Of a stretch of DNA of 64,000 bases, positions 56,189 to 64,000 are shown one piece after another; position 1 is the first letter of the stretch; each line of letters begins with the position of its first letter. The stretch is from Candidatus Nomurabacteria bacterium (lineage in GTDB: Bacteria > Patescibacteriota > Minisyncoccia > Phycocordibacterales > UBA918). The position numbers and the translations under genes are program-made. The notes under the pieces were generated by a model, which did not search any database, was not told the DNA's origin, and saw nothing but the letters and a program-made list of their open reading frames with translations. The DNA is taken from positions 840,930 to 904,929 of the forward strand of contig CP060228.1 in assembly GCA_023898565.1 (NCBI GenBank). Reading direction: 5' to 3'.

Positions 56189-56611
56189 ATGCCCACCCAA
56201 TCCACCCGCTTTGACTTCGGCGACAACAAAACACCTTCCAGCACCTTCACGCTCCATGAACGCATCATTGAGGATCGCGGGAGTAAATACTCAGTGAGTA
56301 TCGGGCATGTGACTGGTCGGGAGGACATCAAGCAATTTTTGAAGACACTTAAAAGCAAAAAGAAATACGCCAGCGCCACCCACAATAGCTGGGCAGCGCG
56401 CATCTCGCACGAAGGCACTATCTACGAGACCAAATCAGACGATGGCGAGACTGGCGCTGGCATGGTGATTTTGCGTGCCATGCAAAAGGAGGATGTGGTG
56501 GACGCGGTCATTTGTGTCACCAGGTGGTTCGGGGGCGTCATGCTCATGAATGACCGCTTCAAACACCTCCAAGAGGCCACTGGATATGCCATTCAAAACA
56601 TATCGCCATAA
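56189..56611 (+). CDS. IMPACT/YigZ family (UPF0029) protein
   Basis: DRGSKYSV...ATHNSWAA...SDDGETGAGMVIL...VTRWFGG fits the YigZ N-terminal domain. The start is moved to Met 56189 to clear the terminator. Confidence 0.7.
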   Translation: MPTQSTRFDFGDNKTPSSTFTLHERIIEDRGSKYSVSIGHVTGREDIKQFLKTLKSKKKYASATHNSWAARISHEGTIYETKSDDGETGAGMVILRAMQKEDVVDAVICVTRWFGGVMLMNDRFKHLQEATGYAIQNISP

Positions 56612-56612
56612 T

Positions 56613-56645
56613 AAAAAACACCAGCTGTACCAGCTGGTGTTTTAC
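56613..56645. terminator. Bidirectional intrinsic terminator
   Basis: AAAAACACCAGCTG-tac-CAGCTGGTGTTTT. Confidence 0.75.
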
Positions 56646-57244
56646 TACTCACTGAGCGTTTTAAATTGCCTTCGAAACCACCACACGACCAACGGCAATG
56701 AAAGCAGGCCAAGTGCTATCAGTATCGTTTGTGTCTTACCGTCTGTTTCGGTGATTGCTGTTGTCAGGTAGTACCCGTGCAATACAACACCAACAGCCCA
56801 AATCGTAGAAGCAGCCACAATCACCAACAAAAAGACTTGTTGCTTCATGTTACACACCGCAGCTGCGACAGGAACGAACACTTTTACCACTGGAACAAAT
56901 TTGCCCATGAAGGATATTTTTACATTGCTCCGATCAAACACTCGCCTAAAATGATCAAACGCAACCCGGCGTTTTTTCAGAAAGACAACCTGATCAAACA
57001 ACTGTTCGAGCCCACACCTGCGCACTATGTAATACACCACCATGTTACCGATTGTGTTTCCAGCAGTTCCCGACAAAACAACATACGAGAAGTCGAGGGG
57101 GCCAACTGCTACAAAGTAGCCAGCCGGTAGATACACAAGTGGTGAAGACGGAGCGGAGGTCATGCCGTTAAGAATCATCAAGCAAAAAATGGCGAAATAG
57201 CCATACTGCTGAACCAAATCGTTCATCATTGCTTCCATGAGCAA
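56645..57244 (-). CDS. DedA/VTT-family membrane protein
   Basis: YGYFAIFCLMILNG...LPAGYFVAVGPL...GNTIGNMVVYYIVRRCG matches DedA conserved blocks. Confidence 0.6.
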   Translation of the reverse strand: MLMEAMMNDLVQQYGYFAIFCLMILNGMTSAPSSPLVYLPAGYFVAVGPLDFSYVVLSGTAGNTIGNMVVYYIVRRCGLEQLFDQVVFLKKRRVAFDHFRRVFDRSNVKISFMGKFVPVVKVFVPVAAAVCNMKQQVFLLVIVAASTIWAVGVVLHGYYLTTAITETDGKTQTILIALGLLSLPLVVWWFRRQFKTLSE

Positions 57245-57330
57245 CTCCTAAAAAGAACTACAGCTAGTAAAACACAGACTGCGTAATTTTAAAATAGCTT
57301 AGAAAATCAAACACACGCCTATACAATCAA

Positions 57331-57358
57331 AAGAAAACCCACGAGTTTCGTGGGTTTA
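57331..57358 (-). terminator. Intrinsic terminator for the minus-strand hydrolase gene
   Basis: AAACCCACGA-gttt-CGTGGGTTT followed by a T-run on the minus strand. Confidence 0.6.
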
Positions 57359-57373
57359 AATCGTTGCAAATGG

Positions 57374-58200
57374 TCACACATGGTCAATGTGACCACCGAT
57401 TAAGTATGCACGCGTTTTTTCCATCACGGCAATGCTAAAGCAGATAAGCACATGACCACGCGACATCGGAACAAGTTTGACGTTTTGCGACGAAACTGTA
57501 GGCAGAGCCAATCTACCTATGATGAGATCTCTCGTGCCATAGAGGGCCAACTGCGGCACAGAGAAGGATCGTTCAATAGTCTTGTATTGATTAACACTCA
57601 CCTGTGAAGCACCCTTCTTGGCCAAAAACCGGTGCATCATCGCTGGAACACTATAGTTGGGAGCTTCCTGTTCCTTGAGTGGACTAAAAACCGTCACCAA
57701 CTTCGAGACAATTTCTTTCCCTCCAAGAGCTTCAACGTAATACCGAGCGACCACACCACCCTGGCTGATACCAATCAAATGAATCTGCGTTGCGCCACAC
57801 TCATCGATATTGCATCGATTTGTGCTTTTACCTCAAGCGCCGCGCTCTCAAGATCATTTCGGTAATCAAAACCAATTGAAATGACATCGATGCCCGAACG
57901 CTTAAACCACTGAACAAACGGAAATACCGTAGTATAGTAGTTTGCCAGAATACCGTGCAAAACAATCGTAAGTTGACCTCCGCTGGCCTTCACAGCATTC
58001 ACGCACGCAGCGTTATGGCTATCCATTTTTTTCTTACTTGCGCGCAATACTCCAAGCGGACACACCATTGATTTGATTCTATGCTCAATTTGAGCGGTCC
58101 AATGCTTTTCCATAATCCACGCTCCAAAAGAAAATGGCCAATACACACCGATACACTTTGCCGTAAAAAACCCAGCTTCCTCGCTGACTATACCAAACAA
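57374..58200 (-). pseudogene. Alpha/beta-hydrolase (lipase class-2 / esterase-like) split by a frameshift near 57775–57790
   Basis: The upstream ORF carries the oxyanion HG (QLTIVLHGILANYY). The downstream ORF, in another frame, carries the nucleophile elbow IGISQGG, Asp (GTRDLII) and His (MSRGHV). The two ORFs abut at 57775/57778. Confidence 0.55.
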
Positions 58201-58227
58201 TCAGACTGCTGAATCAAAAAAACACGC

Positions 58228-58869
58228 TTACCGACCACTGTCAACAGAAGCAAGCCTGAGAGCAACATACTGTGCTAGGCGTGAAATAACATGCCCAACA
58301 ACAAATACAGCGGCCACACTTATGAGTAAGTCAGTTGCGCCGCGCTCAATATCGAGCAACTCTGTCATTCCTTGACTAAAAATCAAAACGAAACCAAACA
58401 AAGTGCCAATAAATAAAACATTAGCCAACACGTTGAAAAATAAGTATTTAGCAAAAGGTATTTGATGCTTCGCAACCACGTAGATGGTTAACACCAGCCG
58501 CATACCCACCATGAACTTAATGAACAACAGTAACACGTATGGATACTTGTCTGCCAGCGCAAAAAATGACTGTTTGGCTGGCTTTGTCTTCGTCAGCTCT
58601 CTCTTTTGAAACCAGTCCTTAAGCCATGACCAAGCCGTGAAGCGAGTAACGCCGTACCAAAATACATCTGCAGAAAGCGATCCCAGGAAAGTGAAAAAGA
58701 GCGCAACTGCAATATGTAGATGCCCCTGCAACGCCATCGTGATTGAGAGCAGACCACCAATTTCACCCATCGAAATAGTAGCCGCCCACACCATAAAAGC
58801 AGTCAGTATAGAGGCGTCAGTGAGGAAGAATGTTTCAAAATATATAAACAGATTCTCAAACATATTCAT
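58228..58869 (-). CDS. Polytopic membrane protein, DedA/VTT-like
   Basis: Six hydrophobic segments; LGSLSADVFWYGVTRF resembles the DedA G..lGD..wY.lGR block. Confidence 0.45.
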   Translation of the reverse strand: MNMFENLFIYFETFFLTDASILTAFMVWAATISMGEIGGLLSITMALQGHLHIAVALFFTFLGSLSADVFWYGVTRFTAWSWLKDWFQKRELTKTKPAKQSFFALADKYPYVLLLFIKFMVGMRLVLTIYVVAKHQIPFAKYLFFNVLANVLFIGTLFGFVLIFSQGMTELLDIERGATDLLISVAAVFVVGHVISRLAQYVALRLASVDSGR

Positions 58870-58938
58870 TGGATTCTAACATGAGAACACTATTCTGCTG
58901 ACGTAGCTAGACAGACACGCGGCCCAAAATATGCCGCT

Positions 58939-59499
58939 CTAGCTTTCTCGATACTCGATGGAAGTATACGGCCGCACTGCAAATCGAGGCCAAAGTATCG
59001 CTAGAAAATTTAGCAAAAAACCAACAATAAAAGGCAACTTGCCCCAAATATGAATCAGCTCCGAATATGGATACCGAGTGAGTCCTTGTTCATCTTGAGT
59101 TGAGAAAAATGACGTATCAAAACAGTAAAACGAATCTTCGTCATACCCCCACACGACTAACCAATGACCAAGGCCGCTTCTCGTGAAAATAATAGAACAC
59201 AAACCCTGATCAATTCTATCCTTCAGATAGGACACTTGCGAACTATTTTGGTGTGTTATCGACGCAGTCACACCAAGATCTTCGAGCGACTTCACCATAT
59301 CGTATGGCAACATGGCGCCAATTTCAAAGACGGTCATACTCACAGAAAATGGCTCGTGGTGAATGCGCGGAATTCGACCAAGCCGACACAGCAGCAACTC
59401 AATAGAGACAGGACCGCATGCTTGTCTTGATTTCACACTACTATCCCAGCCATCCGGAAGTGGTAATAATGTTCGATGTAGAGTATTTCTCATAAGCAA
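58939..59499 (-). CDS. Papain-like cysteine peptidase, C39-like domain, with a C-terminal TM helix
   Basis: Q...ACGPVSIELLL (Gln/Cys region), GHWLVVWGYDED (His/Asp region), and the C-terminal hydrophobic IVGFLLNFLAILW. Confidence 0.45.
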   Translation of the reverse strand: MLMRNTLHRTLLPLPDGWDSSVKSRQACGPVSIELLLCRLGRIPRIHHEPFSVSMTVFEIGAMLPYDMVKSLEDLGVTASITHQNSSQVSYLKDRIDQGLCSIIFTRSGLGHWLVVWGYDEDSFYCFDTSFFSTQDEQGLTRYPYSELIHIWGKLPFIVGFLLNFLAILWPRFAVRPYTSIEYRES

Positions 59500-59559
59500 C
59501 TCAGTTTACCAGAATTCAACAAGCCGCTCAAAATGGCAAAGCATCAGAACTTTTGACTC

Positions 59560-60756
59560 ATGGTACGATATACACATACCCACATCACCTTTGCACACAT
59601 GAGCGAAACTACAACTGCAATCAAAGAGCGTCAACGTTTAGAATTTCTCATAAAGCGCGTCTGGCCGACGTACCGACTTTTTGTAAAGCATCATCTAACT
59701 AAGCGCTGCACCAAATGTGCAATTTCAGAACGAGCTTCGGGCACTTTTAGTCCGGACGGTATCTGTCCGATTTGTCTACAAAAATCTTCTAAAACCACCA
59801 GTAATACCGTAGCAATTTCTGAGGAACAAGAGGCTGCTATGCACGCACAGATTGCAAATGCTTTATCTGGAGCACAGGGAACAGGAGGTTTTCTCTATGA
59901 TGCGCTTGTATTCTACAGTGGCGGCAAAGACAGTACCTACTTGCTGCATCGACTCAAGATTGACTATCCCAATCTGCGACTCTTGGCAATTACTGTCGAC
60001 AATGGATTTATGAGCCCCGTTGCAATGAGCAACATCAAACAAACCATTGCTCGCCTTGATGTAGAGTACATGATTCTTAAACCGCCAAGTACGTTGTACA
60101 AAAAACTTTTTGCTTACGCATTTACACACCCAAGTAAAATGGGTTCTGCAGAGTCAATTGATGTTTTAGATGGCGAATTACGATTTGATATTGGACGGCA
60201 CCTTGCGGCAAAACTGCATATCCCGCTCATTCTGATCGGCTTATCGCGTGACCAAATGTCCGTATATAACGGCAAACCACAATGCGAAAGCGACCGAGCA
60301 TTTGAAGAATCAAAACGAACAACAGTAAGTAACTACACGCTCACTGAATTGCCACTTTCGTCAGAGGAATCAAAATACTGGTGGGACGCGACCCGCTATG
60401 ACAATGGCGCCATTGCACGCGTACTCTTCCCACTAGCAGCTTGGAATAAAGACGAACAGTTTCTTTCCAACGAAGTGGTTGCACTCGGACTTATTTCCGA
60501 AGGGAAGCAAAGTCCATTGCTGACCAATCATTTACTCATCCCCCTCATGGCCCTGACTGATGTTGCACAACTTGGCTACGCGAGTTGGGAGCCTGAATTT
60601 GCACAAATGATTCGAGAAGGTAAAGCTGACCGAAAGTACTGGCAACATCTTTTTGAAATGGTTGAATACGCAGCGAAAACAGGCAGATTCATTGGCGCTT
60701 CTATCGACGACCTTCTCACTCAACTAAACCTACGTCGCGCTGACGTAGGCCTATAA
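59560..60756 (+). CDS. PP-loop ATP pyrophosphatase with an N-terminal C4 zinc ribbon (TtuA/NcsA-like or N-acetyl-sugar amidotransferase-like)
   Basis: CTKC...(16 aa)...CPIC, then LVFYSGGKDSTYLL (the SGGxDS P-loop); no Fe-S cluster Cys triad. Confidence 0.55.
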   Translation: MVRYTHTHITFAHMSETTTAIKERQRLEFLIKRVWPTYRLFVKHHLTKRCTKCAISERASGTFSPDGICPICLQKSSKTTSNTVAISEEQEAAMHAQIANALSGAQGTGGFLYDALVFYSGGKDSTYLLHRLKIDYPNLRLLAITVDNGFMSPVAMSNIKQTIARLDVEYMILKPPSTLYKKLFAYAFTHPSKMGSAESIDVLDGELRFDIGRHLAAKLHIPLILIGLSRDQMSVYNGKPQCESDRAFEESKRTTVSNYTLTELPLSSEESKYWWDATRYDNGAIARVLFPLAAWNKDEQFLSNEVVALGLISEGKQSPLLTNHLLIPLMALTDVAQLGYASWEPEFAQMIREGKADRKYWQHLFEMVEYAAKTGRFIGASIDDLLTQLNLRRADVGL

Positions 60757-60831
60757 AGACGGTGAGTTACACGCAGTTGTTCGGCCGTTCACATAGCCTT
60801 CGCCGCCAAAAATATTCTATAATGGAATCAT

Positions 60832-61305
60832 ATGGACCTTGGATACTTCTTGGACCTCACGTATGAATTTGCCTTCTTCTTGGGCGTCTTTACTTTTTTT
60901 ATAGCGTTTGCTGTTTTAAAAGGCAGGCAGGCAGTGATGAATGTAACCGCTGGACTTTACCTCGCGATTGTTGTCACGACATACTTCCCGAATTACAGCA
61001 CTATTTTCCCAGACGCCTCTAAGGCACTGCCAGAGATTGGCTTCTTTGCTTTCATTGCACTCTTAGCTACACTGCTTTTCTTCCGCATCATGCCGGAAGA
61101 GTTTCAAGAAAAACGTTTTGAAAGCATGGGGAAGAAACTACTCCTGTCGTTTGGTGCAACGGTGCTCACCATCGCCATTTGTTTCCAATTATTATCAGTA
61201 GGGGAGCTACTTAACGCCGACACACCACTTCAGTCACTCTTTGCCCCAAAAGAATTCTTCTTCTGGTGGCTCTTGGCGCCACTCGCAATCTTGTACGTCG
61301 TATAG
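60832..61305 (+). CDS. Integral membrane protein (5 TM), unknown
   Basis: Hydrophobicity pattern. Confidence 0.4.
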   Translation: MDLGYFLDLTYEFAFFLGVFTFFIAFAVLKGRQAVMNVTAGLYLAIVVTTYFPNYSTIFPDASKALPEIGFFAFIALLATLLFFRIMPEEFQEKRFESMGKKLLLSFGATVLTIAICFQLLSVGELLNADTPLQSLFAPKEFFFWWLLAPLAILYVV

Positions 61306-61349
61306 AAAAACGCAGCCGAAGCTGCGTTTAAGAAAGAGGAGGGACGAAT

Positions 61350-61742
61350 TCAGTCGCGATCCATCATGTCAATGATGGTGCCGTCATAGTCCTGCCAGTT
61401 CTCGCCAACCTCATGAATGAACTGACGTTCAATGAGAGAAGCAAACTGATGTTGCTTGTAGTACGGACAGAACGGATGGTCGCCGGGCTCTTCCGGCCAA
61501 TCGTCCTCGCGATTTTCATCAAACCATTGGTCAAACTTGTCGATGACCTCATCGGAAATACCTGCCAGCTTGCACAGATGACTCTCGATGAGCTCGTGCA
61601 AGCCGATGGCAAGCGACCAAGAGTCGTTGCCCATATCGGAGACGAGAATGGTCGTCTTACCACCCTCATCAGTCTGATAGTCACCAACAGTGTTGTATCG
61701 TTGATGTTCATGCGGAATGGTTTTGATTTTGATGTCCAGCAT
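61350..61742 (-). CDS. Hypothetical acidic protein (130 aa), His/Cys-containing; start at Met 61742 with a strong SD
   Basis: AAGGAGA 6 nt upstream of ATG 61742. Motifs HEHQRY, HELIESH and HPFCPYY are present but unassigned. Confidence 0.4.
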   Translation of the reverse strand: MLDIKIKTIPHEHQRYNTVGDYQTDEGGKTTILVSDMGNDSWSLAIGLHELIESHLCKLAGISDEVIDKFDQWFDENREDDWPEEPGDHPFCPYYKQHQFASLIERQFIHEVGENWQDYDGTIIDMMDRD

Positions 61743-61880
61743 CTGAATCTCCTTTAGGTATGGGGTCAAAAAACTGCTTACTTTATAACATAAATAAGCA
61801 GCAAAGTCAATTAACACGTATTTGTACACAGCTTGAACATTGACAAATCAATTGTTTGTTTTAAAATATACGCACCAAAA

Positions 61881-62288
61881 ATGACAACAGAAGATTCAAT
61901 ACAATTCGGGCTGCACTTCATGTTTGATGGATACGGAGCAGACCCAGACACACTCAAAGACAGTACCAAACTCACTGATATCTTGCGAACAATCCCTGCT
62001 AGCATGGGAATGCACGCCATATCAGAACCACTTGTTGTGGAAGTTGGCCCCAAAAACCGCAAGGACCCAGGGGGTGTCAGCGGTTTTGTGATGATTGCAG
62101 AAAGCCACATCAGTTTCCATACTTTTCCAAATCGTGGTTTTATTACCGCCGACGTCTACACGTGTCAAAACGAAATGGACACCGATAAGCTCACTAAGCT
62201 TTTCGTGGACAGTTTCAAGATTACTGATTTTGAAACCCATGTCTTGCCACGCGGTACCAGATACCCAGCTGAAGACATTTCTAAATAA
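61881..62288 (+). CDS. Pyruvoyl-dependent decarboxylase of the S-adenosylmethionine decarboxylase (SpeH/SpeD class 1) family
   Basis: GVSGFVMIAESHISFHTFP matches the proenzyme self-cleavage/pyruvoyl site (E|S) of AdoMetDC; DVYTC is conserved. Confidence 0.65.
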   Translation: MTTEDSIQFGLHFMFDGYGADPDTLKDSTKLTDILRTIPASMGMHAISEPLVVEVGPKNRKDPGGVSGFVMIAESHISFHTFPNRGFITADVYTCQNEMDTDKLTKLFVDSFKITDFETHVLPRGTRYPAEDISK

Positions 62289-62296
62289 TCCTCCCT

Positions 62297-63607
62297 ATGC
62301 GTGTACTCTTTATCTCAGGAGAACTTATCGGCTCAGCAGTCGTTCATCAACTCATTAAAGAGGGACACGAGGTTAAATTGTTTGTCGCACACAAAGACCG
62401 CCACGACTGTTTGCGGGGTTTTGCTGTGCGCACTGATAATTGGCACGACGAACTACCTTGGGTAGGAAAGGACGGTCTGATTGTGTTTGATGATGTTACC
62501 TTTGGTGACACTCCCGATAATCTGCGCGCCGAGGGATATAGTGTGTTTGGTGGCAGTAAAGCCAGTAGTGATATTGAGCTCGACCGTGAGCTGTTTCAAC
62601 GCATCATGGCAGATGCTGGTATTGCGACACTGCCATCTTTCGATTTCGACACCCCCGACGAAGCGATGACTTTCGTAAAAGAAAATCCAGGCGAATGGGT
62701 AATTAAACAAAACTCGCACATCAGCGCCCTCAACTATGTAGGACTCCGACAAGACGGGCAAGATATTCTCGATATGTTGCAATACTACAAAGACATGGGT
62801 ATTGCACCACTCCACCTCCAGAAGAAAGCGACCGGTATCGAAATCGGTGTAGCGCGGTATTTTAACGGCACCGACTGGGTTGGTCCGATTGAAATTAACA
62901 TGGAGCACAAGCCGCTGATGAATGAAAGCATCGGGCCGCTCACAGCTGAAATGGGTACGCTCATGTGGTATGAGACAGACGAGTCCCAGCCAATCTTCCA
63001 AGCGACACTCGCCAAACTAAAACCATACCTCACCGAGATAGGCTACAAGGGCGATATCGATGTCGGCTGTATTGTAAACGAGGACGGCGTCTGGCCACTT
63101 GAGACCACTACGCGCTTTGGCACCCCATCCACCGAACTCCAGTGTGAACTGCAGATTTCACCATGGGGCGACATGCTAAAAAGCATTGCTGACGGCGAAG
63201 CATACAACCTGCAGTATCACGATGAGTACGGGATTGTAGTATCAGTAACCGTACCACCGTTTCCATTTGCTCCAGACAACGCTTCAGGTGCAGGCATCCT
63301 TACTTCAAAAGGCATGTCCGTTTTCTTTGCTGATGATTTTACTGACGAAGACATGCAACACGTACACTTTGAAGAAGTATCAAAAACCACACTCAGTGAT
63401 GGTTCCACTCGCCATTTCCTTGGCGGACACCACGGCTACGCACTGTACGTAACCGGAAAGGGGAAGACGGTCGAAGAAGCGCGCACGAAAGCGTACGATA
63501 TTGTACGAAAAATCTTTATTCCGAAAATGATGTACCGCACTGATATCGGCTCCGCTTTTCTAACCCATGAGCAAACCACACTTCGTGAGTGGGGATGGAT
63601 TGCATAA
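62297..63607 (+). CDS. ATP-grasp ligase of the phosphoribosylamine--glycine ligase (PurD/GARS) family
   Basis: N-terminal MRVLFISGELIGSAVV, central RFGTPSTE (compare PurD CRFGDPE), and C-terminal KAYDIVRKIFIPKMMYRTDIG (compare PurD ...RKDIG). Confidence 0.6.
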   Translation: MRVLFISGELIGSAVVHQLIKEGHEVKLFVAHKDRHDCLRGFAVRTDNWHDELPWVGKDGLIVFDDVTFGDTPDNLRAEGYSVFGGSKASSDIELDRELFQRIMADAGIATLPSFDFDTPDEAMTFVKENPGEWVIKQNSHISALNYVGLRQDGQDILDMLQYYKDMGIAPLHLQKKATGIEIGVARYFNGTDWVGPIEINMEHKPLMNESIGPLTAEMGTLMWYETDESQPIFQATLAKLKPYLTEIGYKGDIDVGCIVNEDGVWPLETTTRFGTPSTELQCELQISPWGDMLKSIADGEAYNLQYHDEYGIVVSVTVPPFPFAPDNASGAGILTSKGMSVFFADDFTDEDMQHVHFEEVSKTTLSDGSTRHFLGGHHGYALYVTGKGKTVEEARTKAYDIVRKIFIPKMMYRTDIGSAFLTHEQTTLREWGWIA

Positions 63608-63636
63608 TTACTACCTAACACTGATACACTACACAC

Positions 63637-64000
63637 ATGACCTGGTTTCTCGTCGCCTTGATTGGCCCGATCTTGTACGCCATTACAAATCACATTGATA
63701 AGCACCTCCTCGAAAAGTATTTTAGCGTTAGTGGAGTAGGGACACTTCTCATCTTTTCATCACTTGCGTCGATTCTCGCGCTGCCGATTATCTTCTTTGC
63801 CGACCCGACTGTCCTCGATGTTGATCCGTTCAATATTTTCATTCTGTGTATTGTCGGCCTCCTCAACACAGCTCTGCTATGGTTTTACCTGATGGCGCTC
63901 GAAGAAGAGGAGGCATCAGTCACGATTGTGTTCTATCAGCTTGTGCCAGTCTTTGGCGCTGTCCTAGGCTATTTCTTGCTTGATGAGGTGCCAACCTTAA
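63637..64000 (+). CDS. DMT-superfamily (EamA-like) transporter, 5' portion (runs off the window)
   Basis: ATG 63637; TM-rich sequence ...YAITNHIDKHLLEKY...LLNTALLWFYLMALEE.. typical of the EamA repeat. Confidence 0.5.
   Translation, partial: MTWFLVALIGPILYAITNHIDKHLLEKYFSVSGVGTLLIFSSLASILALPIIFFADPTVLDVDPFNIFILCIVGLLNTALLWFYLMALEEEEASVTIVFYQLVPVFGAVLGYFLLDEVPTL

What the first reader, a model, noticed from the sequence alone, without database searches (positions are those of the whole stretch)
58939..64000. Candidate undescribed small-molecule / modification locus: C39-like Cys peptidase, Zn-ribbon PP-loop ATPase, AdoMetDC-like decarboxylase, PurD-like ATP-grasp ligase, DMT exporter
About 5 kb of genes sit at the window end. 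A membrane-anchored papain/C39-like cysteine peptidase (58939–59499, minus) is divergently paired with a PP-loop (SGGKDS) ATPase carrying an N-terminal CxxC...CxxC zinc ribbon. A 5-TM membrane protein follows, then a strongly translated 130-aa His/Cys protein on the opposite strand, a pyruvoyl-type AdoMetDC-family decarboxylase (self-cleavage site ES|H in ...IAESHISFHTFP), a PurD-family ATP-grasp ligase, and an EamA/DMT transporter running off the window. A PurD-like ligase is odd in a genome that otherwise shows no purine de novo genes in this window. Decarboxylase + ATP-grasp amide ligase + PP-loop amidotransferase-like enzyme + exporter is the logic of an amino-acid/polyamine-conjugate pathway. 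The combination ATP-grasp / decarboxylase / C39-like enzyme loosely parallels the butirosin side-chain enzymes BtrJ, BtrK and BtrH; that is analogy only. None of the genes is individually novel, but I do not recognise this combination.
Basis: inference. Interest (0 to 1): 0.65.

Follow-up and report, generated by a model that had tools for sequence, protein, structure and literature searches.

The report
PurD-like ligase beside polyamine decarboxylase
The end of this window, from a Kaiserbacteria-type (Candidate Phyla Radiation) genome, carries a tight three-gene operon of a decarboxylase, an uncharacterised ligase descended from the purine enzyme PurD, and a membrane transporter; it recurs across Patescibacteria next to polyamine genes and probably makes an unknown amide of agmatine or a related polyamine, while the neighbouring peptidase-like and PP-loop genes are a separate, strain-variable insert.

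Summary

- **Strain-variable insert.** Window 56581-60815 is missing from strains that are 98-99% identical. It holds two DedA/VTT genes, a frameshifted hydrolase, the C39-like gene and the PP-loop gene. None of 160 related loci carries the last two genes.
- **Conserved unit.** This is the operon 61881-64000: an AdoMetDC-family pyruvoyl decarboxylase, a PurD-like ATP-grasp ligase and an EamA permease.
- **The ligase is not PurD.** It scores 80.6 bits against the 288-bit purD cut-off, and the phosphoribosylamine and glycine contact residues are replaced. Family-wide acidic residues D65 and E218 are gained.
- **Neighbourhood of the ligase.** Homologues in 80 Patescibacteria genomes lie within 1.5 kb of EamA in 47 cases and near polyamine genes in about 33.
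- **Three unrelated decarboxylase folds** sit beside the ligase and EamA: AdoMetDC-type, PvlArgDC and PLP-dependent.
- **The decarboxylase's closest relatives** sit in SpeY-SpeB clusters, the agmatine-dependent homospermidine route. This suggests an arginine decarboxylase.

My best reading is an ATP-dependent ligase that joins agmatine or a polyamine to an unknown carboxylate. This is inferred, not shown. I found no published description.

The parts
61881..62288 (+). AdoMetDC-family (class 1b) pyruvoyl decarboxylase, 135 aa. Probable SpeDA-type arginine decarboxylase. First gene of the operon.
   Evidence: PF02675 E 1.3e-26; TIGR03330 77.6 bits against a 75.65-bit cut-off. The motif AES|HISFHTFPNRGF..DVYTC aligns with T. 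maritima S63/H68/C83. It lacks the ODC-type signature VQLIETS|LVSGHF. Relatives at 63-70% identity sit in decarboxylase-SpeY(DS)-agmatinase clusters with the same upstream synteny.
62297..63607 (+). PurD-derived ATP-grasp carboxylate-amine ligase of unknown substrate, 436 aa. Second gene, 8 nt after the decarboxylase stop codon.
   Evidence: TIGR00877 80.6 bits against 288; GARS_A and GARS_C below their Pfam cut-offs. AF2 model pLDDT 91.9; best PDB folds are all PurD at 16-21% identity, TM about 0.75. ATP-grasp residues are kept while PRA and glycine contact residues are replaced. Homologues at 45-68% identity occur in 80 Patescibacteria genomes.
63637..64000 (+). EamA/DMT permease, truncated by the window end. 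Full length is 307 aa in sister contigs. Third gene, 29 nt after the ligase.
   Evidence: PF00892 in L001-L006; TIGR00950 carboxylate/amino acid/amine transporter at E 4e-14, sub-threshold. An EamA gene lies in 56 of 80 ligase loci, within 1.5 kb in 47.
61840..61867 (+). Promoter-like site (TTGACA-16-TAAAAT) upstream of the decarboxylase ATG.
   Evidence: Matches 11 of 12 consensus positions. A consensus match only.
61350..61742 (-). Conserved 130-aa protein, divergent from the operon. Possible minimal zincin-like (HExxE) fold. Its link to the operon is uncertain.
   Evidence: Next to the decarboxylase in L011, L036, L097, L107, L117 and L167. AF2 pLDDT 94. No PDB or viral fold match at E<0.001; the weak matches are SprT/IrrE/lethal-factor-like.
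60832..61305 (+). 157-aa multi-TM membrane protein. Syntenic neighbour upstream of the decarboxylase.
   Evidence: No family hit. Found upstream of the decarboxylase in 26 of 80 decarboxylase loci and in 8 of 80 ligase loci.
56581..60815 (.). Strain-variable 4.2-kb block, NOT part of the operon. Contents: DedA/UptA-like (56645-57244, -), frameshifted alpha/beta hydrolase (57374-58200, -), VTT/DedA-like (58228-58869, -), C39-like (58939-59499, -), WbuX-like PP-loop ATPase (59560-60756, +).
   Evidence: Absent from L001 and L003, whose flanks are 94-99% identical; about 64 nt stand in its place. No flanking repeats. The PP-loop, C39-like and intact hydrolase trio recurs in L167.

Best explanation
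Window 61881-64000 is a three-gene operon. Its parts and their support are as follows.

1. **Decarboxylase.** An AdoMetDC-fold pyruvoyl decarboxylase makes a cationic primary amine. The most likely reaction is arginine to agmatine, inferred from orthologues in SpeY/SpeB clusters.
2. **Ligase.** The PurD-derived ATP-grasp enzyme would activate a still unknown carboxylate as an acyl phosphate and couple it to that amine, or to putrescine or spermidine derived from it, giving an N-acyl-agmatine or N-acyl-polyamine amide. The chemistry is inferred from the family, and the substrate from neighbourhood and active-site changes.
3. **Permease.** The EamA protein would move a substrate or the product across the membrane (inferred).
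4. **Accessory enzymes in other genomes.** N-methyltransferases and ureohydrolases encoded next to the ligase elsewhere would act on the free guanidino or amino end of the product (speculative).

The C39-like peptidase, the PP-loop ATPase and the DedA genes upstream are an unrelated, strain-variable accessory block.
For: **Shown**
- Operon geometry: gaps of 8 and 29 nt on one strand.
- The ligase is not PurD:
  - Curated cut-offs are failed.
  - The N-domain is too diverged to align by sequence.
  - PurD's GGREH loop, with Arg13/Glu14 that hold PRA, becomes SGELIG.
  - PurD's VGPE becomes VFDD.
  - DHKR becomes EHKx.
  - GPNTGGMG becomes GPLTxEMG.
  - RFGDPE, whose Asp295 and Glu297 bind the glycine amine, becomes RFGxPS/T.
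- ATP-grasp core residues E94, R97, K137, E182, K205, E269 and R273 are invariant in 27 diverse members, as is E218; D65 is in 26 of 27.
- Neighbourhood of 80 genome loci:
  - EamA in 56, within 1.5 kb in 47.
  - The same decarboxylase subfamily in 26, plus one in-frame decarboxylase-ligase fusion in L068.
  - Agmatinase in 5 (TIGR01230, 196 bits against 174).
  - SpeE or a SpeD-SpeE fusion in 2.
- Non-homologous replacement of the decarboxylase:
  - L008 reads PvlArgDC (PF01862, E 7e-26) then ligase then EamA, on a low-GC island in a Rhodospirillales chromosome.
  - L175 holds the ligase, a PLP Orn/Arg decarboxylase (PF02784, E 5e-29) and EamA, on a low-GC island in 60%-GC phage-like DNA.
  - L071 has the ligase and EamA beside agmatinase. 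The 400-aa PLP-fold decarboxylase, 418-aa, 462-aa and 366-aa genes next to it look from their sequences like carboxyspermidine decarboxylase and dehydrogenase, aspartokinase and aspartate-semialdehyde dehydrogenase. That is my reading of the sequences, not a family search.
- In the syntenic slot after the decarboxylase, relatives carry SpeY +/- SpeB (25 of 80), SpeE (2) or the ligase (2). SpeY never co-occurs with the ligase: 0 of 80 ligase loci.
- Guanidino- or amine-directed methyltransferases follow the ligase:
  - GAMT homologue in 8 loci (E 1.7e-48 to rat GAMT).
  - PrmA/PRMT-like in 6.
  - SET in 5, plus a ligase fused to a weak C-terminal SET match, P0292 (22.7 bits against a 22.4-bit cut-off).

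**From the literature**
- SpeDA + SpeY + SpeB is the agmatine-dependent homospermidine route (PMC13625781, PMC10407285).
- hss-gss clustering is a precedent for a polyamine synthase next to an ATP-grasp-type amide ligase (PMC9992855).
Against: - No biochemical data exist for any member.
- 47 of 80 ligase loci show no polyamine gene within about 8 kb.
- Only 2 of 80 decarboxylase-anchored loci carry the ligase.
- The whole region (DnaK-DnaJ-...-HisK-TrpRS) is syntenic in this lineage, so part of the adjacency may be inherited gene order.
- The decarboxylase keeps the prolines that Li et al. treat as typical of true AdoMetDC. In L087 and L107 the same subfamily sits next to SpeE, so it could make decarboxylated AdoMet instead.
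- The carboxylate partner is unknown.
- Distant family members fused to HAD-like domains or embedded in a phage portal/MuF protein hint at other chemistry, possibly on phosphorylated substrates.
- The active-site mapping of the N-domain rests on secondary-structure register and my own alignment, not on superposed coordinates.
Confidence: 0.5

Rival explanations
1. The ligase is unrelated to polyamines. Its position beside the decarboxylase and EamA reflects conserved gene order in Patescibacteria, and its substrates are something else, for example a cell-wall or lipid precursor or a protein carboxylate.
For: - The DnaK-DnaJ-Impact-membrane-decarboxylase-...-HisK-TrpRS/AspRS order is conserved with or without the ligase.
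- A sensor kinase follows the ligase in 64 of 80 loci and a Cys-rich membrane protein is nearby in 47 of 80.
- Other neighbours include PlsC-GNAT fusions, a DapF-like gene and LPG_synthase_C.
- 47 of 80 loci have no polyamine gene nearby.
Against: - Three unrelated decarboxylase folds sit next to the ligase and EamA. Two of these cases are foreign low-GC islands where lineage synteny cannot apply.
- L068 carries an in-frame fusion.
- The L071 cluster around agmatinase, if my reading of its genes is right.
- New invariant acidic residues fit a cationic substrate.
Confidence: 0.2
2. The decarboxylase is a genuine AdoMetDC. The ligase then acts on decarboxylated AdoMet or on spermidine made elsewhere, acting like a glutathionylspermidine synthetase.
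For: - TIGR03330 is just above its cut-off.
- Both prolines of canonical AdoMetDC are kept.
- The same subfamily is followed by SpeE in L087 and L107.
- L076 and L082 place SpeD-SpeE or SpeE directly upstream of the ligase.
Against: - 25 of 80 subfamily members are followed by SpeY, whose pathway needs agmatine.
- PvlArgDC, an arginine-specific family, replaces the decarboxylase in L008.
- No SpeE was found in this 64-kb window.
- Trp to Phe and Glu to variable changes in the HTWPE motif.
Confidence: 0.15
3. One reading: one pathway locus that combines the C39-like peptidase, the PP-loop ATPase, the decarboxylase, the ATP-grasp ligase and the exporter.
For: In the window and in L167 the PP-loop and C39-like genes lie within 2-3 kb upstream of the operon.
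Against: - The block is absent from strains that are 98-99% identical and keep the operon.
- 0 of 80 ligase loci and 0 of 80 decarboxylase loci carry either gene.
- PP-loop homologues elsewhere have unrelated neighbours and a different partner gene.
- The block genes are only 42-53% identical between the two species, while the ligase is 80% identical.
Confidence: 0.05
4. It is an ordinary purD (GAR synthetase) of purine biosynthesis.
For: The closest sequence and fold relatives are all PurD. Some databases name homologues 'phosphoribosylamine--glycine ligase'.
Against: - 80.6 bits against the 288-bit equivalog cut-off; 16-21% identity to PurD structures.
- PRA and glycine contact residues are replaced.
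- No recognised pur gene stood out in the neighbour maps of the 80 loci; I made no targeted search for pur genes there or in the window.
Confidence: 0.03

Closest known systems
PurD / glycinamide ribonucleotide synthetase (TIGR00877; PDB 2yw2, 2ys6, 1gso, 2qk4)
   Same: Four-domain ATP-grasp fold (TM about 0.75). ATP and Mg-binding Glu/Lys/Arg residues and the catalytic Arg of RFG are kept. By homology the enzyme should use acyl-phosphate carboxylate-amine ligation.
   Different: 16-21% identity; fails all curated cut-offs. The GGREH loop, the GPE helix cap, Asn of GPNT, and Asp/Glu of RFGDPE are replaced. New invariant residues D65 and E218. Operonic with a decarboxylase and a DMT permease instead of pur genes.
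SpeDA-SpeY-SpeB agmatine-dependent homospermidine clusters (Li et al. 2023, 2026; PMC10407285, PMC13625781)
   Same: The same decarboxylase subfamily and the same flanking synteny. The decarboxylase is followed by an enzyme that would consume its product. Agmatinase-family genes sometimes accompany it.
   Different: Here the deoxyhypusine-synthase homologue SpeY is replaced by an ATP-grasp ligase. The product would be an amide, not a secondary-amine polyamine. SpeY and the ligase never co-occur in the loci examined.
Glutathionylspermidine synthetase clustered with homospermidine synthase (PMC9992855)
   Same: A polyamine-forming enzyme encoded next to an ATP-dependent, ATP-grasp-type amide ligase that conjugates the polyamine to a carboxylate.
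   Different: A different ATP-grasp family. The carboxylate here is unknown and there is no amidase domain.
MfnA/MfnD of methanofuran biosynthesis (tyrosine decarboxylase plus tyramine-glutamate ATP-grasp ligase; recalled from my own knowledge, not tested here)
   Same: The logic is the same: decarboxylate an amino acid, then ligate the amine to a carboxylate with an ATP-grasp enzyme.
   Different: Unrelated decarboxylase fold, a RimK-type rather than PurD-type ligase, and an archaeal cofactor pathway.
WbuX/PseA-type N-acetyl sugar amidotransferases (TIGR03573), for the PP-loop gene in the variable block
   Same: N-terminal CxxC zinc ribbon plus SGGxDS PP-loop. E 1.5e-21 over the N-terminal 172 positions of the model.
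   Different: Only half of the model is matched, at 77 bits against 203. The gene is not in a sugar or O-antigen cluster here.
Butirosin BtrJ/BtrK/BtrH
   Same: A decarboxylase and an ATP-grasp ligase in one pathway.
   Different: No carrier protein is present. The C39-like gene is not part of the conserved unit, the decarboxylase is pyruvoyl rather than PLP-dependent, and the ligase family differs. Analogy only.

Membership tests
PurD (phosphoribosylamine-glycine ligase) | Score at or above the curated family cut-offs (TIGR00877 288 bits; PF01071 27; PF02843 34.8) | tested here: not met
   80.6, 22.9 and 34.1 bits.
PurD (phosphoribosylamine-glycine ligase) | PRA site: Arg13/Glu14 of the GGREH loop and the GPE helix cap (human numbering, PMC2978367) | tested here: not met
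   The beta1-alpha1 loop reads SGELIG and the strand end reads VFDD. The mapping rests on secondary-structure register, not on superposed coordinates.
PurD (phosphoribosylamine-glycine ligase) | Glycine site: Asp217, Arg292, Asp295 and Glu297 (DHK..., RFGDPE) | tested here: not met
   HMM alignment to 2yw2 and 2xcl gives EHK and RFGTPS. Arg is kept; Asp295 and Glu297 are lost.
PurD (phosphoribosylamine-glycine ligase) | Genomic company of other pur genes | tested here: inconclusive
   No recognised pur gene stood out among the neighbour clusters of the 80 loci, but I ran no targeted pur search there or in the window. The whole genome was not searchable.
ATP-grasp superfamily | ATP-grasp fold with conserved ATP/Mg-binding Lys/Glu and a catalytic Arg | tested here: met
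   AF2 pLDDT 91.9. PurD, biotin carboxylase and PurK are the top folds. E94, R97, K137, E182, K205, E269 and R273 are invariant.
AdoMetDC/SpeD class 1b fold | Pfam PF02675 above the cut-off; self-cleavage Ser plus His and Cys at T. maritima spacing | tested here: met
   93.5 bits against 25. ES|H..H..C aligns with 1tlu and 2iii.
SpeDC (AdoMetDC-derived ornithine decarboxylase) | Diagnostic Gln, Thr, Phe and Tyr around the pyruvoyl Ser (VQLIETS|LVSGHF..AY) | tested here: not met
   The window has VMIAES|HISFHTFP.
SpeDA (AdoMetDC-derived arginine decarboxylase) | Only decarboxylase in a cluster with SpeY and/or SpeB; arginine decarboxylase activity | tested here: inconclusive
   Orthologues at 63-70% identity are followed by DS/SpeY (PF01916, E 3e-90) and agmatinase. 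The window gene itself has no SpeY or SpeB beside it. The proline typical of true AdoMetDC is kept. Activity cannot be tested with these tools.
Peptidase C39 / C39-like | Family HMM above the cut-off; Cys-His catalytic pair; usually the N-terminal domain of a bacteriocin ABC exporter | tested here: inconclusive
   PF13529 16.2 bits against 24. No PDB, NCBIfam or PHROG hit. A Cys/His/Asp motif is present. The protein stands alone and no ABC transporter is nearby.
WbuX-type PP-loop amidotransferase | Full-length TIGR03573 match at or above 203 bits; SGGxDS PP-loop | tested here: not met
   77 bits over the N-terminal half only. The PP-loop motif is present.
EamA/DMT transporters | EamA Pfam domain(s) and about 10 TM segments | tested here: met
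   PF00892 in the full-length sister-contig copies and in cluster representatives.

The most novel reading that the evidence does not exclude
The PurD-like family would be an agmatine-specific ATP-grasp ligase.

- In this reading the phosphate site of PurD's phosphoribosylamine pocket has been charge-inverted (D65, E218, and E9 in the CPR clade). It would then hold the guanidinium of agmatine, which is about as long as PRA.
- Together with an arginine decarboxylase and a DMT permease it would form a mobile three-gene cassette.
- The cassette would make a previously unknown class of aminoacyl-agmatine or acyl-agmatine 'pseudo-polyamines'.
- In many Patescibacteria these would take the place of SpeY- or SpeE-made triamines. 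They would be further N-methylated or de-ureated by the GAMT-, PRMT-, SET- and SpeB-like neighbours.
Probability: 0.25. Interest if true: 0.8.

Novelty: new variant of a known kind. Interest (0 to 1): 0.6.

Why it matters
- **Scale.** Patescibacteria are a very large and poorly understood part of bacterial diversity, with minimal metabolism. A ligase family with 670 clusters (at 50% identity) scoring E <= 1e-30 is conserved across many of their classes.
- **Annotation.** Members are routinely labelled 'phosphoribosylamine-glycine ligase' or 'hypothetical'. That label wrongly credits these genomes with a purine-biosynthesis step.
- **Chemistry.** If the ligase conjugates agmatine or a polyamine, it defines a new branch of polyamine metabolism next to the recently described agmatine/SpeY route. 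It would also be a clear case of an enzyme pocket re-used for an oppositely charged substrate.
- **Experimental access.**
  - The cassette occurs with three unrelated arginine or ornithine decarboxylases.
  - It also sits on foreign islands in a proteobacterial chromosome and in phage-like DNA.
  - The ligase is present in the cultured Minisyncoccus archaeiphilus.
  - Together these give direct experimental handles.

Tried and rejected
- **Ordinary purD:** rejected on cut-offs and active-site residues.
- **ODC-type SpeDC:** rejected on diagnostic residues.
- **Single locus including C39-like and PP-loop:** rejected by strain comparison and 160 related loci.
- **Widespread decarboxylase-ligase fusions:** six of seven candidates were artefacts of overlapping stop-to-stop ORFs. 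Only L068 is in frame.
- **A second AdoMetDC homologue next to SpeE in L087 and L107:** my guess from an 'AESHF' motif. It is DUF2617, not AdoMetDC.
- **Mobile-element borders for the 4.2-kb block:** no flanking repeats.
- **Phage origin of the ligase:** only weak 22-27% identity hits in 50,697 phage records. Two viral-contig scans with divergent members found nothing, and a profile of divergent members was too variable to scan with.
- **Literature:** searches for PurD-like, ATP-grasp, Patescibacteria, polyamine or agmatine found no description of this family. Bale et al. 2010, on AdoMetDC substrate contacts, was not available.
  - Model coordinates are not exposed, so no pocket geometry could be measured.
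  - The rest of the genome could not be checked for speE, speB, speY or pur genes.

Full report
**Source and gene content**

The PurD-like protein is identical to a protein that NCBI names from Candidatus Kaiserbacteria, and its longest contig is 952 kb. The window is therefore Patescibacteria/CPR DNA.

Family scans gave these results:

| Gene | Result |
|---|---|
| C39-like | Peptidase_C39_2 only, sub-threshold (E 0.016) |
| PP-loop | Matches the N-terminal half of WbuX TIGR03573 (E 1.5e-21, below the cut-off) |
| 157-aa membrane protein | No hit |
| 130-aa protein | No hit |
| Decarboxylase | AdoMet_dc clearly above the cut-off (E 1.3e-26) |
| PurD-like | Below every curated cut-off (TIGR00877 80.6 bits against 288) |
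| Last ORF | EamA permease |

**The region is two units, not one**

Exact-protein look-up found sister contigs. blastn shows that L001 and L003 are 94-99% identical on both flanks but lack window 56581-60815. About 64 nt stand in its place, and there are no flanking repeats.

The missing block carries:
- a DedA/UptA-like gene;
- an alpha/beta hydrolase split by a frameshift;
- a VTT/DedA-like gene;
- the C39-like gene;
- the PP-loop gene.

Neither the PP-loop nor the C39-like gene occurs in 80 genome loci anchored on the ligase or in 80 metagenome loci anchored on the decarboxylase.

The two genes recur together, with an intact hydrolase, in one related species, L167. There they are 42-53% identical while the ligase is 80% identical.

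The PP-loop protein belongs to a roughly 380-aa 'hypothetical' family spread over many phyla. Its contexts there are unrelated. Other CPR members have a different, divergently transcribed partner of about 180 aa with a TM segment.

**The conserved unit**

The decarboxylase (ATG 61881), the ligase (8 nt later) and EamA (29 nt later) are co-directional. A promoter-like TTGACA-16-TAAAAT lies at 61840-61867.

Homologues of the ligase at 45-68% identity occur in 80 species-level genomes. These include Kaiser-, Nomura-, Moran-, Magasanik-, Pace- and Gribaldobacteria and the cultured Minisyncoccus archaeiphilus. A whole-library profile search finds 670 clusters (at 50% identity) with E <= 1e-30.

My ORF clustering and phmmer labelling of the 80 genome loci give:

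| Neighbour | Loci (of 80) |
|---|---|
| EamA | 56 (47 within 1.5 kb) |
| Sensor histidine kinase downstream | 64 |
| Small Cys-rich membrane protein | 47 |
| Same decarboxylase subfamily | 26 (23 within 1.5 kb), plus one in-frame fusion, L068 |
| Agmatinase (TIGR01230 above the cut-off) | 5 |
| SpeE or SpeD-SpeE | 2 |
| GAMT homologue (E 1.7e-48 to rat GAMT) | 8 |
| PrmA/PRMT-like methyltransferase | 6 |
| SET-domain protein | 5 |

**The ligase is not PurD**

A profile of 15 members hits only PurD structures, and only from residue about 72 onward. The AF2 model is confident (pLDDT 91.9). Its best PDB folds are all PurD at 16-21% identity, ahead of biotin carboxylase and PurK.

I used the residue roles given for human and G. 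kaustophilus PurD (PMC2978367 and PMC8880213). Against those, the ATP and Mg residues and the catalytic Arg are kept. The substrate contacts are replaced:

| PurD motif | Role in PurD | This family |
|---|---|---|
| GGREH loop (Arg13/Glu14) | Holds PRA | SGELIG |
| VGPE | Helix cap at the PRA phosphate | VFDD |
| DHKR | Glycine site | EHKx |
| GPNTGGMG | Loop over the active site | GPLTxEMG |
| RFGDPE (Asp295/Glu297) | Holds the glycine amine | RFGxPS/T |

In 27 diverse members E218 is invariant and D65 is present in 26. Acidic residues where PurD binds a phosphate argue for a cationic amine substrate. This is inference, because no coordinates were available.

**What the decarboxylase is**

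It carries the S, H and C catalytic triad at T. maritima spacing. It lacks the ODC (SpeDC) signature that I read from the published SpeD1-SpeD2 alignment. It keeps the prolines typical of AdoMetDC.

The reciprocal scan shows a tight subfamily with the motif AESHIS[FI]HTFPxRGF..DVYTC. Within 3 kb of the decarboxylase, the 80 loci carry:

| Neighbour | Loci (of 80) |
|---|---|
| Deoxyhypusine-synthase homologue (PF01916, E 3e-90) | 25 |
| Agmatinase, often following it | 10 |
| SpeE | 2 |
| LPG_synthase_C-like gene | 11 |
| The ligase | 2 |

L093, L098 and L104 are 63-67% identical to the window protein. They share its upstream synteny (DnaK-DnaJ-Impact-membrane protein) and read decarboxylase-SpeY-SpeB.

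According to Li et al., SpeY couples two agmatines and SpeDA supplies them. By orthology the window enzyme is most likely an arginine decarboxylase. A true AdoMetDC role is not excluded, because L087 and L107 pair the same subfamily with SpeE.

SpeY is absent from all 80 ligase loci and from the window. The ligase and SpeY therefore look like alternative occupants of the slot after the decarboxylase.

**Evidence beyond synteny**

- **L008.** This is a low-GC island in a 6-Mb Rhodospirillales chromosome. It reads PvlArgDC (PF01862, E 7e-26), then the ligase (55% identical), then EamA.
- **L175.** This is a 4-kb, 33-41% GC island inside 60%-GC phage-like DNA. It holds the ligase, a PLP-dependent Orn/Arg decarboxylase (PF02784, E 5e-29) and EamA.
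- **L071.** The ligase and EamA lie beside agmatinase and a 400-aa PLP-fold decarboxylase (PF00278, PF02784). From their sequences I read that gene and the next three as carboxyspermidine decarboxylase and dehydrogenase, aspartokinase and aspartate-semialdehyde dehydrogenase. No family search was run on those last three genes.

Three non-homologous decarboxylases next to the same ligase-permease pair is hard to explain except by a functional link.

**Proposed mechanism**

The steps are:
1. Arginine is decarboxylated to agmatine (probable).
2. The ligase activates a carboxylate as an acyl phosphate and couples it to agmatine or a downstream polyamine (inferred).
3. EamA transports a substrate or the product (inferred).

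Several enzymes recur after the ligase in other genomes. They are the GAMT-like, PRMT-like, SET and SpeB-like proteins, plus P0292, a ligase with a weak C-terminal SET match (22.7 bits against a 22.4-bit cut-off). All of them act on guanidino groups or terminal amines. An N-acyl-agmatine or N-acyl-putrescine would still expose such a group. This link is speculative.

The carboxylate is unknown. Counter-evidence and rival readings are listed in their own sections.

**Novelty**

Searches of the literature library found no description of this family or cassette. The nearest precedents are:
- the SpeDA/SpeY/SpeB clusters;
- hss-gss clustering;
- ATP-grasp steps in agmatine-containing natural products such as E-64, where a different enzyme adds the agmatine.

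I rate it a new variant of a known kind: an ATP-grasp carboxylate-amine ligase with a re-purposed PurD pocket in a polyamine context.

Noticed in passing
window 57374-58200 (-): The alpha/beta hydrolase (Palm_thioest-like) is split into two overlapping ORFs in different frames (57775-58200 and 57374-57778). The orthologue in L167 is one intact 238-aa gene. This is probably a frameshifted pseudogene or a sequencing error.
   Followed up: partly
window 61350-61742 (-): A conserved 130-aa protein with invariant H49, E50, E53 and H98 (HExxE). The AF2 model is confident (pLDDT 94) but has no significant PDB or viral fold match. The weak matches are consistently minimal zincin folds (SprT, IrrE/PprI, lethal factor). 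It recurs beside the decarboxylase in several lineages.
   Followed up: partly
P0265 and P0274 (homologues of window 62297-63607): Some PurD-like homologues carry inteins with homing-endonuclease-like inserts at catalytic loops. P0265 has one between LEFT and C-RFG. P0274 has a second one inside GEMG|T. This is unusual for a metabolic enzyme and marks these loops as the most conserved sites.
   Followed up: partly
P0370 (1236 aa): A PurD-like domain is embedded between a phage portal domain (SPP1_portal/Phage_portal) and a C-terminal Mu F-like head-morphogenesis domain. This is the position where MuF-fused effectors are found. It could also be a gene-calling fusion.
   Followed up: partly
P0307, P0377 (N-terminal) and P0301 (C-terminal): Divergent family members carry HAD-like extensions with DxDG/DxDKT motifs. 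This hints that some members handle phosphorylated substrates or products. Pfam did not call the extensions.
   Followed up: no
L175 8000-12000 and L008 8000-11000: The ligase-decarboxylase-EamA cassette sits on low-GC islands (33-48% GC) inside high-GC DNA. One is a phage-like IMG/VR contig and the other a Rhodospirillales chromosome. This is either horizontal transfer of the cassette or chimeric assembly.
   Followed up: partly
L001 8965-9318 (just beyond the window end) and 47 of 80 ligase loci: A small protein with an N-terminal TM segment, a Cys-rich region and an acidic tail has no family hit. It is conserved between EamA or the ligase and a multi-TM sensor histidine kinase. Its function is unknown.
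   Followed up: no
L095 1886-2806 and 10 other decarboxylase loci; L016, L029, L033, L065, L080, L082: Lipid head-group enzymes recur in the same neighbourhood. An LPG_synthase_C (MprF C-terminal-like) gene follows the decarboxylase. A PlsC-acyltransferase-GNAT fusion with a 346-aa membrane protein follows the ligase. This raises a possible link to cationic envelope modification.
   Followed up: no
L087 6381-7019 and L107 7308-7868: A DUF2617 protein with an 'ILAESHF' motif that resembles the AdoMetDC cleavage site accompanies SpeE next to the decarboxylase in both loci. Its role is unknown.
   Followed up: partly
L168 5323-5859, L172 3844-4392, L173 4300-4845, L174 63-611: In other CPR genomes the PP-loop family gene has a conserved, divergently transcribed partner of about 180 aa. 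The partner has an N-terminal TM segment and a GHRLLG motif and is unrelated to the C39-like protein.
   Followed up: partly
L064 2034-2795 and 3 other ligase loci; L019 4865-5899 and 4 others: A DapF-like epimerase (just below the TIGR00652 cut-off) and a radical SAM/SPASM protein each recur directly beside the ligase in a few lineages.
   Followed up: no
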